Shown: positions 33,001 to 36,000 of the stretch, in pieces
Numbering within the stretch: position 1 is the stretch's first letter
Layout of the letters: each line of letters starts with the position of its first letter
DNA from: Ruditapes philippinarum
Lineage: Eukaryota
Length of the DNA stretch: 64,000 bases
Reading direction: 5' to 3'
NCBI RefSeq assembly: GCF_026571515.1
Contig: NW_026858743.1
Span: 1 to 64,000, forward strand
Position numbers: made by a program

Positions 33001-36000
33001 ATCCAATTTTCAGTTATTTTTATCTTCAAGTTATTTCTTCATTTGTAAATATGATAAACTGATATCAAAACTCTAGAATTTCAATAAATTACAAGTAAGG
33101 TAAATTAGAATCCCCAGACACACGTTTCATTACAATATAATATTTTCAATGAACAGATATGTCATTAGTTTATAAGTCTTAATTACAAATTCGATAATAC
33201 AATGATAAACATGAAGGTTAAAAACATCTAAACTTCAACGTGAGACGGATGCTTAGCAATTAGGTTAATTCCTCTCAACCCAGGGGTCGTAGGTACAAAC
33301 CCTTCTTGGGTCATAGTTATGTTATCATATCCTACACCATACCTGGCTTATTCTAGGAAGCGGTTTTATATTAGTTCAAATATGTACAAGGCCCTAAATA
33401 ATTTTTAAACTGAAGGGAAAGTAAACAAATGTTATAGATGTTATGAGGAAAATATGTTGAAGCTATTTACCATGGTTTATTATTTAATGTTGTTCGCATT
33501 GAAGAGGGATCAAATCAAAAGTCAAATGAATATATTTAGTTTCAATTTTTTAATTTAAAATAATTTACAGAACCTATTCAATTTTGGTAACTGTTTAAAA
33601 GATTGTAACAAACCACACTTGTTTCAATTCAAAGAATACCGTTACTTATTATCAATTTGTATGGCTTAACTAAACTTAGAAAAGAAGTACATGTAATGTT
33701 TTATTTGTGACGTTGCATAATATATATTTCAGATATTGTATGTATGGTGTATATGGTTAAATGTTAGCAACAACCTGGTAGAAGGAGGTAACTAAATTTA
33801 CATCAGTCTTTATTACAGATAATGTGGTATTTATCTTTGTTAATGGAAAACGTATTTATTCAAGTTAAAAGAAAATAAATATACATGCAGCACGAAAAGG
33901 TGTTGGTAGTGTTACTGAAATATTGTTTTTCTTTCCCGTTATAGAGATTGATGAACAATGTAAAGTAGGTTGTGTATGTTGTATAAATAGAAAATGTGCA
34001 CGGGGAAAATGGTTTTCTAACGAATGTACTCAAGGCTGTATTGATGGTCATAGATCTGCTCGATGTTATGAACTATGTACACACAATTGTACAAAATGCC
34101 CTGATCGTGCAGATACGTGTACCGCGTGCTATGATGGCTATTACCCCGGCCCTGCTAGAGACTGCACATCAAAGTGTTTACCCGGATGTAAAACATGCAC
34201 GTCAGGAACCACGTGTACATCATGCAAGGAGGGATATAATAATGACAATGGTCGAAATGATTGTAGTAATCGTTACTGTCCTGAAAACTGTAATTGCAAT
34301 AACGGTCAATGTGCATCATGTAAGGACGGATATTACGATACGACTAAAATATGTAATAGTTTATGTCCAGGTAACTGTGTCACGTGTACATCGAATACTA
34401 ATTGTGGATCGTGTAAGGATGGTTATTTTAACAAAAACCTCCCTTTGTTAAACGACTGTACATACAAATGTCGAGATAACTGTGCACGATGTTGGTCCTT
34501 TAATAGTTGCTTGCTTTGTAAAGGTGGTCTTTATGGATCGACGTGCGACAACAGTTGTTCAGTTGGTTGTATGTCAAACACTTGCGATATACTAACTGGA
34601 AGCTGTGCATGTTCTCCTTATTTTGCTGGAGTAAGATGTGACGAATGCATAACCGGAAAATATGGAAATGTTTGCGATCAACAATGTCCTGCAGGGTGTA
34701 AAGCTAACGTGTGTGAAAAAGATTCCGGAGATTGTACAGACGGATGTACTATAGACACGATCGTTGGGGATAAATGTGACCTTTGTTTAACAGGCTGGTA
34801 TGGACAATACTGTAACATATCTTGTCCTGTCGGCTGTAAAAATCAGCATTGCAAGAAAAGTAATGGGGAATGCTCAAATGGGTGTCTTGATAACTTTGTA
34901 GGAAGACATTGCATTCAATGCAAACCTAGCAAATATGGAGAATCATGCCAAAGTGAATGTCCAAATACCTGTGACGAGCAAGGTTGCTTGAAAGATTCCG
35001 GTCATTGTTTTAATTGCAATCACAACTTTGTTGGAGAGACATGTGATAGATGTCGTATTGGCTTTTTTGGTTCATTTTGTTCTGTGACATGCCCATCTAT
35101 TTGTTTATACGGTGTATGTGACAGATATACAGGAACGTGCTCTGATGGCTGTGTCTTCAATTATTCTGGTGACAAATGTTGTATAAATAATAACAACTGT
35201 ATTACATGTTTGTCAGATACTACGTGTAAACAATGTAAGCCTGGATACTTCAATGTCCAATGTGACAAAAAATGTCCTCGGAACTGTCTTAAGTCCTGTC
35301 ATATCGAGACAGGTCTTTGTGACGGTTGCATCGGTTACTTTTATGGTGATAGTTGTAATTTTTCATGTGCCTCTACATGCAAAATTCAAACAACAGGCGG
35401 AAGTTTATGTCAGCAAAGTAATGGAAAGTGCCTATATGGATGCGCAGATGGTTTCCACGGTTTACAATGTTCTGAGAAATGTTCTGTTTATTGCAACGAT
35501 ACACTTTGTGAGCAAGACGACGGCAAATGTACAAAAGGCTGCATAATAAAAGTAAAGAATGACCACATTTGCCCTCTGACACCAGGTAAGATAAATTCAA
35601 AACAGCTCGTTTTTATTCATAAATTCGTTATAAATATATGTTTTTCATTTTTAGTTGTGTTATGTGTTAATGTCATAATATGTCTTCTCTGTAAATTTGT
35701 AATGATGGTGATTATGTTGTTGCGCTGCTAATGATAATGAAAATAATGTTGATGATTATAAGAATAATTCTAACACGACTCGCATTTTTCCCTATTGAAC
35801 ATAGAAGAACAGAAAGTGTGTGTTATTATGCAACAGATGAACAGTTTGACGTTCTATATTTAGACATGTGACGTAATCATTATACACGCGACGTAACCAC
35901 TAAAAATCCGACGCGCTGAAAATAAGTACGGAAACAAATCAGGCGCAATTTTGCTTAGCTATCAAGTACGGCAACATTTATTTGTTGATGTCGTGTTAGA

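What the first reader, a model, noticed from the sequence alone, without database searches (positions are those of the whole stretch)
34937..35503. Highly divergent ectodomain segment close to a homogenised block
Hand alignment of 89-334 with 34937-35182 (82 codons): 30 amino-acid changes, ~53 nt differences, only 9 purely synonymous codon changes, and every Cys kept. About 160 nt further on (491-655 vs 35339-35503) there are only 4 differences in 165 nt. The shared non-coding flanks look roughly 90% identical by eye. So one segment seems more diverged than neutral DNA and the other less. Inference: diversifying selection on ligand-facing loops plus gene conversion near the membrane, as in vertebrate paired-receptor clusters.
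Basis: partly seen in the sequence, partly recalled or inferred. Interest (0 to 1): 0.75.

Follow-up and report, generated by a model that had tools for sequence, protein, structure and literature searches.

The report
Mosaic clam EGF-repeat receptor gene pair
Two neighbouring copies of a clam cell-surface receptor gene differ strongly in one stretch of the outer domain and are almost identical in another, which fits ordinary patchwork evolution of a duplicated gene family and does not prove selection for diversity.

Summary
The flanks are not ~90% identical. The adjacent intron differs at 0.157-0.194 of sites and pooled non-coding DNA at 0.136.

The window is Manila clam (Ruditapes philippinarum). 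Copy B is an annotated 636-aa "MEGF10" protein (100% match); copy A is its tandem neighbour, cut by the window start.

The divergent segment evolves at about the silent rate (omega 0.77-0.91, not different from 1). Sites that also vary in five other paralogs give omega ~2 (p=0.064). It is a family-wide variable region, and the A-B changes fall in all 15 of its inter-Cys loops.

The near-identical block has lower silent divergence (4-fold sites 0/18 vs 10/37, p=0.02; LRT p=0.029). There A and B are uniquely close (2/55 vs 6-18/55 for other pairs). An A-like protein (P0052) carries another paralog's version of its first half. This indicates short-tract exchange plus purifying selection.

Gene conversion is supported. 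Diversifying selection is only suggested. The paired-receptor analogy is weak, because A and B carry the same tail exons.

The parts
1..737 (+). Copy A: 3' part of the large ectodomain exon, cut by the window start. There is one reading-frame change near 88-91, and the donor after 737 is GC.
   Evidence: No protein 100% identical to it was found among 8 hits of 43 candidates or 2 hits of 3 candidates.
89..334 (+). Seg1 in copy A: two ~44-residue Cys-rich EGF-like units, the divergent segment.
491..655 (+). Seg2 in copy A: the near-identical block. Its first half (491-568) is the exchanged tract; its second half is conserved in most of the family.
1137..1260 (+). Copy A stalk and transmembrane exon (bounds +/-2 nt).
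2195..3535 (+). Copy A cytoplasmic tail exons (about 2195-2241, 2761-2826, 3274-3333, 3486-3535). The last two carry the ITAM-like YEDL and YGEI motifs.
33733..33787 (+). Copy B signal-peptide exon (residues 8-25 of P0001). The exon for residues 1-7 was not located.
33945..35585 (+). Copy B large ectodomain exon (residues 26-572 of P0001), an open frame with a GT donor.
34937..35182 (+). Seg1 in copy B (P0001 residues 357-438).
35339..35503 (+). Seg2 in copy B (P0001 residues 491-545).
36392..36515 (+). Copy B stalk and transmembrane exon (bounds +/-2 nt).
37692..37761 (+). Copy B tail exon as annotated. The context before the donor GT is TC, where A has AG, and the annotated protein reads on to a stop, giving a 27-residue tail.
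38134..38943 (+). Copy B: unannotated counterparts of the further tail exons (about 38134-38199, 38693-38752, 38903-38943), with splice sites and ITAM-like motifs kept.
4787..6206 (+). Non-coding block of low A/B divergence (partner 40540-41934; 89/1357 = 0.066), possibly a second homogenised patch.
12610..14464 (+). Decayed remnant of an LTR-retrotransposon pol gene (RNase H and integrase). This is the virus-like stretch, lying downstream of copy A. It is described only.

Best explanation
A and B are tandem neighbours, about 35 kb apart, in a recently expanded clam family of single-pass receptors. The outer domain is a string of Cys-rich EGF-like or laminin-EGF-like units encoded by one large exon.

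The disulfide scaffold is under strict purifying selection. The residues between the Cys in two units (seg1) are only weakly constrained across the whole family, so they drift at about the silent rate. Some positive selection may be mixed in.

The near-identical block arises from two effects together. Its second half is conserved in most family members. Its first half was overwritten by a short non-allelic gene-conversion or exchange tract between paralogs. Similar patches occur in the non-coding part of the duplicated unit, so the homogenisation need not be adaptive or linked to the membrane.

Shown: the counts, the rates, the incongruence and the mosaic. Inferred: the conversion mechanism, the recency of the family burst, and a receptor function signalling through an ITAM-like tail.
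For: Identity of the genes: P0001 matches 100% over the whole exon. There are seven paralogs 73-78% identical over the 216-residue region.

Cys scaffold: all 39 columns that are Cys in copy A are Cys in all seven paralogs.

Rates: omega by segment is 0.28 upstream, 0.77 in seg1, 0.31 in the middle and 0.20 in seg2. Seg1 differences by codon position are 18/15/20 of 82.

Seg1 in the family: A-B is 30/82 against 18-31/82 for the other pairs. It lies in one of the two most variable stretches of the ectodomain, with mean pairwise difference 0.33-0.35 against 0.15-0.26 in most windows. The A-B changes are symmetric: 8 unique to A, 8 unique to B, 9 where both residues are shared with other paralogs, and 5 where both are unique.

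Seg2: silent rate is about 4-fold lower (LRT p=0.029). Four-fold sites are 0/18 against 10/37 (p=0.021). A-B is 2/55 against 6-18/55 for other pairs (P=7.5e-5 under the family rate). The P0052 mosaic also falls here.

Family-wide mosaicism: a PHI-like test on 71 informative columns gives P=0.001-0.016. The nearest neighbour of B switches along the protein.

Patchy non-coding divergence: 0.04-0.23 per 200 nt, and 4787-6206 at 0.066 against 0.15 elsewhere (p=6e-19).
Against: - Only two nucleotide sequences exist here, so the silent-site evidence rests on 18-32 sites and is marginal (p 0.02-0.04). Against the intron level alone, seg2 silent divergence is not significantly low (2/32 vs 0.136, p=0.17).
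- The site-class result (omega 2.06, p=0.064; with separate silent rates 8.5, p=0.011) leaves real room for positive selection in seg1.
- P0052 is an unnamed record of unknown individual or species.
- The 'recent burst' is inferred from protein distances only.
- Copy A may be a pseudogene (one frame change), which would add relaxed constraint on its side.
Confidence: 0.62

Rival explanations
1. One reading: positive diversifying selection drives the loops of seg1 apart because they face a ligand, and gene conversion keeps the membrane-proximal part uniform, as in vertebrate paired-receptor clusters.
For: - Omega for family-variable sites in seg1 is 2.06 (38 codons, 26 changed; p=0.064).
- Non-Cys nonsynonymous divergence (42/155 = 0.27) exceeds pooled non-coding divergence of 0.136 (p=7e-6).
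- Within the closest trio (A, B, P0002) seg1 distances (29-31/82) are the largest in the matrix, while seg2 and the tail are the smallest.
- B vs P0002 is above the family mean only at residues 306-465 (ratios 1.17-1.48).
- The family holds both ITAM-like tails and a phosphatase-fused tail (P0049, Y_phosphatase 254 bits).
Against: - Whole-segment omega is 0.77-0.91 and does not differ from 1 (p=0.49; non-Cys p=0.73).
- Silent divergence of the exon outside seg2 is as high as the nonsynonymous divergence.
- The changes fall in all 15 inter-Cys loops of the segment.
- There is no structure model (pLDDT 50.5) and no known ligand.
- A and B share the same tail exons, so they are not an opposite-signalling pair.
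- Low-divergence patches also occur in non-coding DNA.
Confidence: 0.22
2. Pseudogene decay: copy A is dead (frame change, GC donor), and seg1 divergence is simply unconstrained decay of A.
For: - There is one frame change relative to B and all paralogs.
- The donor is GC rather than GT.
- No identical protein is annotated, among 8 of 43 and 2 of 3 candidates scored.
- Differences are equal over the three codon positions.
Against: - 16/16 Cys codons in seg1, and all 39 Cys of the fragment, are kept.
- A-unique and B-unique changes are equal, 8 and 8. In the middle segment B has more unique changes than A (5 vs 1).
- P0052 is identical to A over the last 26 residues of seg1.
- All A tail exons and splice sites are intact.
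- AG|GCAAG is the usual form of working GC donors (recalled, not tested).
- The extra base sits in a short G run and could be an assembly error.
Confidence: 0.08
3. Artefact: the near-identical block is an assembly collapse or a consensus chimera between the two copies.
For: Two similar copies 35 kb apart are a setting in which polishing can copy sequence between paralogs. The window has two N runs, so the assembly is not gap-free.
Against: The block still holds 4 differences and is embedded in well-diverged unique sequence on both sides. The tract is far shorter than typical reads. The same kind of mosaic is seen in an independent record (P0052) and across annotated paralogs. Read depth could not be examined.
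Confidence: 0.05

Closest known systems
MEGF10 / Draper / CED-1 engulfment receptors (the names NCBI gives these clam proteins)
   Same: Single-pass type I layout with a long run of Cys-rich EGF-like units. The tail carries an ITAM-like motif, YxxL-x9-YxxI, in 4 of 19 annotated relatives and in the tail exons of A and B. This fits the Draper ITAM definition YxxI/L-x6-12-YxxI/L (PMC6219719, passages read).
   Different: No EMI domain or any other N-terminal domain was found in 5 of 5 proteins scanned at E<=0.1. EGF_laminin scores 17.6-19.5 bits against a cut-off of 21 in those five, and 21.7 bits for the A fragment. NPxY is present in 0 of 19 tails. The family looks clam-specific, with best non-venerid hits at or below 36% identity.
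Vertebrate paired-receptor clusters (KIR, Ly49, SIRP and similar; recalled, not tested by any search)
   Same: Tandem paralogs, mosaic ectodomains with exchange between neighbours, and a more variable ectodomain stretch. The family holds both activating-type (ITAM-like) tails and a phosphatase-fused tail (P0049).
   Different: The fold is different (EGF-like, not Ig or lectin). A and B have the same tail exons. Omega>1 is not shown. The binding site is unknown. It is not known whether the ITAM-type and phosphatase-type members lie in one cluster.
Tandemly expanded bivalve immune-receptor families (C1q-domain proteins, PMC6835236; Toll-like receptors, PMC10279657; search listing and start of abstract only)
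   Same: Lineage-specific expansion by tandem duplication in bivalves, with variable recognition parts.
   Different: The domain types are different. I found no paper describing conversion or selection in this EGF-repeat family.
Laminin-type EGF modules (PDB 1klo, 1npe, 1tle)
   Same: These are the best solved-structure matches by sequence, E about 1e-3 over residues 15-115 of the B fragment. The Cys spacing is 8-Cys-like with a period of about 44 residues.
   Different: The similarity is weak (about 22 bits) and was not confirmed by a fold comparison, because the model was unusable.

Membership tests
MEGF10/Draper/CED-1 | N-terminal EMI domain | tested here: not met
   Pfam scan of P0001, P0003, P0004, P0005 and P0049 at E<=0.1 found no EMI in 5 of 5. 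That EMI defines the family is recalled.
MEGF10/Draper/CED-1 | Many EGF-like or laminin-EGF repeats in the ectodomain | tested here: inconclusive
   EGF_laminin scores 17.6-19.5 bits, below the 21-bit cut-off, in 5 of 5 full proteins, and 21.7 bits for the A fragment. Laminin chains are the best PDB matches at E~1e-3.
MEGF10/Draper/CED-1 | Single transmembrane segment with a cytoplasmic NPxY motif | tested here: not met
   A hydrophobic segment was found by a crude scan in 16 of 19 proteins. NPxY was found in 0 of 19 tails.
MEGF10/Draper/CED-1 | ITAM (YxxI/L-x6-12-YxxI/L) in the tail, as in Draper | tested here: met
   The motif is present in 4 of 19 annotated proteins (P0003, P0004, P0013, P0007). 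Matching exons are present in A and B. The spacing across the exon junction in A and B is inferred from the paralogs, because exons were not joined.
Paired receptors | Neighbouring genes with similar ectodomains and opposite signalling tails | tested here: not met
   A and B both keep the same four tail exons. B's annotated model ends early (27-residue tail), but expression was not examined.
Paired receptors | Positive selection (omega>1) at ligand-contact sites | tested here: inconclusive
   Omega is 0.77-0.91 for the whole segment. The site class gives 2.06 at p=0.064. Contact sites are unknown.
Gene-conversion tract | Silent divergence lower than in the flanks | tested here: met
   Four-fold sites are 0/18 vs 10/37, p=0.021. 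The LRT gives p=0.029. Both are marginal, and against the intron level alone p=0.17.
Gene-conversion tract | Tree incongruence between the tract and its flanks | tested here: met
   This was tested at protein level only: A-B is 2/55 against 6-18/55 for other pairs in seg2, and average elsewhere. The P0052 mosaic gives p=0.003. The PHI-like test gives P=0.001-0.016.
Gene-conversion tract | Not an assembly artefact (normal read depth) | not testable with these tools
   No reads are available.

The most novel reading that the evidence does not exclude
Venerid clams carry a lineage-specific repertoire of ITAM-bearing, Draper-like recognition receptors. In them, two EGF-like units form a selected hypervariable module, shuffled among paralogs by short-tract conversion. 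The same ectodomain is also fused to a tyrosine-phosphatase tail or left tail-less. That would be an invertebrate, non-Ig counterpart of activating/inhibitory paired receptors.
Probability: 0.15. Interest if true: 0.65.

Novelty: new member of a known kind. Interest (0 to 1): 0.35.

Why it matters
Duplicated receptor families in which a conserved scaffold, variable loops and gene conversion interact are well known. This adds a clam EGF-repeat family to them.

It would matter more if codon models on all paralogs confirmed selection on the two variable units, and if the ITAM-type and phosphatase-type members proved to be co-clustered and co-expressed. That would point to a recognition repertoire in bivalve innate immunity built on a fold not used for this purpose in vertebrates.

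As it stands, the finding is a correct observation with an ordinary most-likely cause.

Tried and rejected
- the first codon-model fit did not converge (nested models scored higher than the general one) and was discarded. It was redone with per-partition optimisation.
- the site-class omega of 8.5 depended on letting the silent rate differ between classes. The fairer shared-rate fit gives 2.06, p=0.064.
- the AlphaFold model of the 216-residue B fragment, from a 10-row alignment, had mean pLDDT 50.5 and pTM 0.29. It was too poor to use, so no fold search was run and variable sites were not mapped.
- Conversion from other repeats of the same exon was rejected. Other units match the seg1-seg2 region at only about 26-40% identity in tblastn.
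- no direct repeat of 60 nt or more was found in 7600-18300, so no LTR pair was found for the retroelement remnant.
I then scanned open stretches one by one (20 of the 41 listed).
- Pfam found nothing in 5 of 5 other ORFs.
- no Rfam family and no tRNA in the window.
- four literature searches found no paper on diversification or conversion in this bivalve family within the held library. Supplements are closed and were not seen.
- The nucleotide sequences of the other paralogs could not be obtained. PAML-type site models, GARD and GENECONV across paralogs therefore stayed undone.
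Full report
WHAT THE WINDOW IS. The window is AT-rich (GC 0.23-0.38 per 2 kb). It holds 402 N in two runs, 7225-7438 and 7503-7690, which I left alone. It is not human. The large open frame at 33923-35731, searched on its own as one exon, matches an annotated 636-residue protein of the Manila clam Ruditapes philippinarum at 100% identity and 100% coverage. [quoted passage not shown] In that search 48 proteins passed E<=1e-3 among 433 candidates.

The spliced model was searched exon by exon. 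The large exon was searched alone, and the small exons were compared one at a time by tblastn. The joined step was left out. The spacing of the tail motif across an exon junction in A and B is therefore inferred from annotated paralogs.

ANATOMY. A self-comparison shows a tandem duplication. Window 6-7222, 18163-21218 and 23325-26648 are colinear with 34855-45180 and 52355-56761.
- Copy B is a whole gene. It has a signal-peptide exon (33733-33787), the large ectodomain exon (33945-35585), a stalk and transmembrane exon (about 36392-36515), and a tail exon that ends at a stop in the annotated model (37692-37761). It also has unannotated counterparts of three further tail exons (38134-38943).
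- Copy A starts inside its large exon at the window edge (1-737) and has all five downstream exons (1137-3535).
- Relative to B and to the frame of every paralog, A carries one extra base in a short G run near 88-91, so the upstream frame meets a stop. Its donor is GC where B has GT.
- No identical protein is in the database among those scored: 8 hits of 43 candidates at longer lengths, and 2 of 3 at near lengths.
- Whether A is a pseudogene or carries an assembly error cannot be told here.

THE OBSERVATION. Seg1 (89-334 vs 34937-35182) has 53/246 nt differences, 30/82 residues changed, 9 synonymous-only codons and 16/16 Cys kept. Seg2 (491-655 vs 35339-35503) has 4/165 nt and 2/55 residues changed.

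The contrast is not chance. Seg2 against the rest of the exon gives p=3e-7. Among 6,897 windows of 165 alignment columns over all A/B blocks, every window with 6 or fewer differences lies in 462-708.

The flanks, however, are 80-87% identical, not ~90%. The two alignable parts of intron 1 differ at 27/172 and 34/175 sites. Pooled non-coding blocks give 1062/7821 = 0.136. Non-coding divergence is itself patchy, 0.04-0.23 per 200 nt, and includes a 1.4-kb block (4787-6206) at 0.066.

Seg1 (0.215) exceeds the pooled value (p=0.0004). It does not exceed the adjacent intron (p=0.25) or its own silent sites.

RATES. The Nei-Gojobori estimates are:

| Segment | dN | dS | omega |
|---|---|---|---|
| Seg1 | 0.249 | 0.273 | 0.91 (1.19 without Cys codons) |
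| Middle segment | | | 0.32 |
| Seg2 | 0.015 | 0.065 | |

A codon-model fit (kappa about 1) gives:

| Segment | omega |
|---|---|
| Upstream | 0.28 |
| Seg1 | 0.77 |
| Middle | 0.31 |
| Seg2 | 0.20 |
| Tail of the exon | 0.81 |

Omega=1 is not rejected for seg1 (p=0.49; non-Cys p=0.73). Seg1 differences fall equally on the three codon positions (18, 15 and 20 of 82) and in all 15 of its inter-Cys loops.

I then classified codons by whether the column varies among five other paralogs, a criterion independent of A and B. In seg1 the variable class (38 codons, 26 changed) has omega 2.06 with a shared silent rate (p=0.064). The invariant class has omega 0.12. With separate silent rates the estimate is 8.5 (p=0.011), but that fit rests on one synonymous change. 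Positive selection is therefore suggested and not shown.

THE FAMILY. There are seven sequences that share this long ectodomain:
- copy A;
- P0001 to P0005;
- P0049.

They are 73-78% identical over the 216 residues. All 39 columns that are Cys in A are Cys in all seven.

| Segment | A-B distance | Other 20 pairs |
|---|---|---|
| Seg1 | 30/82 | 18-31/82 |
| Middle | 10/52 | 6-13/52 |
| Seg2 | 2/55 | 6-18/55 |

Under the family rate, the seg2 value has P=7.5e-5. So A and B look like two separate branches of a star-like burst everywhere except seg2.

Seg1 lies in one of the two most variable stretches of the ectodomain in all paralogs. The mean pairwise difference there is 0.33-0.35, against 0.15-0.26 in most windows. 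That makes it a family property and not a peculiarity of this pair. A-unique and B-unique changes are equal (8 and 8). At 9 of the 30 differing sites both residues recur in other paralogs.

The family is mosaic overall. A PHI-like permutation test on 71 informative columns gives P=0.001, 0.002 and 0.016 for three neighbourhood sizes. B is nearest to P0002 at residues 56-235 and 476-565 but not at 296-475.

THE NEAR-IDENTICAL BLOCK. Silent divergence is lower there. Four-fold sites are 0/18 against 10/37 elsewhere (p=0.021). The silent rate is about four-fold lower (LRT p=0.029). Synonymous differences are 2/32 against 24/108 (p=0.042). These are marginal and rest on few sites.

The clearest evidence came from the last protein search. 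P0052 is a 182-residue protein from an unnamed record, 93% identical to A. Compared with A:

| Stretch | A vs P0052 |
|---|---|
| Last 26 residues of seg1 | 0/26 |
| Middle segment | 2/52 |
| First half of seg2 | 5/26 plus one gap |
| Second half of seg2 | 0/29 |

In the first half of seg2, P0052 matches P0004 (1/27) while A matches B (1/26). The clustering of differences gives p=0.003. So a tract of about 26 codons has been exchanged between paralogs in one of the two A-type sequences. The second half of seg2 is conserved in most of the family, which points to purifying selection. The block is thus the sum of a short exchange and constraint.

WHAT THE PROTEIN IS LIKE. Pfam finds only Laminin EGF near its cut-off: 17.6-19.5 bits in five full proteins and 21.7 bits in the A fragment, against a cut-off of 21. 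It finds no EMI domain. The best solved structures by sequence are laminin EGF modules at E about 1e-3.

The tails of P0003, P0004, P0013 and the Mercenaria protein P0007 carry YxxL/I-x9-YxxI (4 of 19 proteins). None of the 19 has NPxY. The motif fits the ITAM definition given for Draper (PMC6219719, passages read). A and B both keep the exons that encode it.

B's fourth-exon donor context differs from A's, and the annotated protein reads on to an early stop. P0049 has the same ectodomain fused to a tyrosine-phosphatase domain (254 bits). The structure model was unusable (pLDDT 50.5), so 'ligand-facing loops' is untested.

VERDICT. A tandem pair in an expanded receptor family has a conserved Cys scaffold, weakly constrained and possibly selected inter-Cys residues in two units, and short-tract exchange. 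The diversifying-selection half is open. The paired-receptor analogy does not hold for this pair.

In four searches of the held library I found no paper on this family's diversification. Of the papers listed, I read passages of PMC12021676 and PMC9334734. For PMC6835236 and PMC10279657 I saw only the listing and the start of the abstract. Supplements were closed.

Noticed in passing
window 12610-14464 (+), within an A-specific stretch 6390-18162: This is the virus-like stretch, a decayed remnant of an LTR-retrotransposon pol gene. RNase H (59 bits) and integrase core plus C-terminal domain are recognisable. The integrase core is split over two frames, giving at least one frame change, and there is at least one stop between the domains. 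No RT, protease or gag hit was found among the 20 pieces scanned of 41 listed, and no direct repeat of 60 nt or more in 7600-18300. About 11.8 kb here has no counterpart in copy B's unit. Described only.
   Followed up: partly
window 4787-6206 vs 40540-41934: A non-coding block is far less diverged between the two duplicated units (89/1357 = 0.066) than the other non-coding blocks (0.15; p=6e-19). It may be a second homogenised patch.
   Followed up: partly
window 37732-37761 vs 2235-2243: The donor context of the fourth coding exon is AG|GT in A but TC|GT in B. The annotated B protein reads through to a stop, so it lacks the ITAM-like exons that are still present downstream. Expression is unknown.
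   Followed up: partly
P0049 (1102 aa) and P0005 (763 aa), paralogs on other contigs: The same long ectodomain (75-76% identical to A's fragment) is fused in P0049 to a tyrosine-phosphatase domain (254 bits). P0005 has a different long tail without the ITAM-like motif. The family therefore combines one ectodomain with several tail types.
   Followed up: partly
window 88-91 and 738-739: Copy A has one extra base in a short G run, which changes the reading frame, and a GC donor. This is either a pseudogene or an assembly error.
   Followed up: partly
window 29140-29765 (inverted relatives 32466-32931); 53747-54886 (inverted relatives 61477-62070); 62281-63213: There are three non-coding satellite-like arrays, with units of 148/179 nt, 166 nt (6.9 copies, 85% matches) and about 162 nt. 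None has an open frame.
   Followed up: no
window 7081-7693 and 45060-45461: Low-complexity triplet-like repeats flank the two N runs. A similar stretch lies in copy B's unit, and it gives long spurious ORFs on both strands.
   Followed up: no
P0053 (168 aa), on the same contig as P0004: This is a truncated annotated paralog that starts inside seg2. It carries the full tail with YEDL-x9-YGEI.
   Followed up: no
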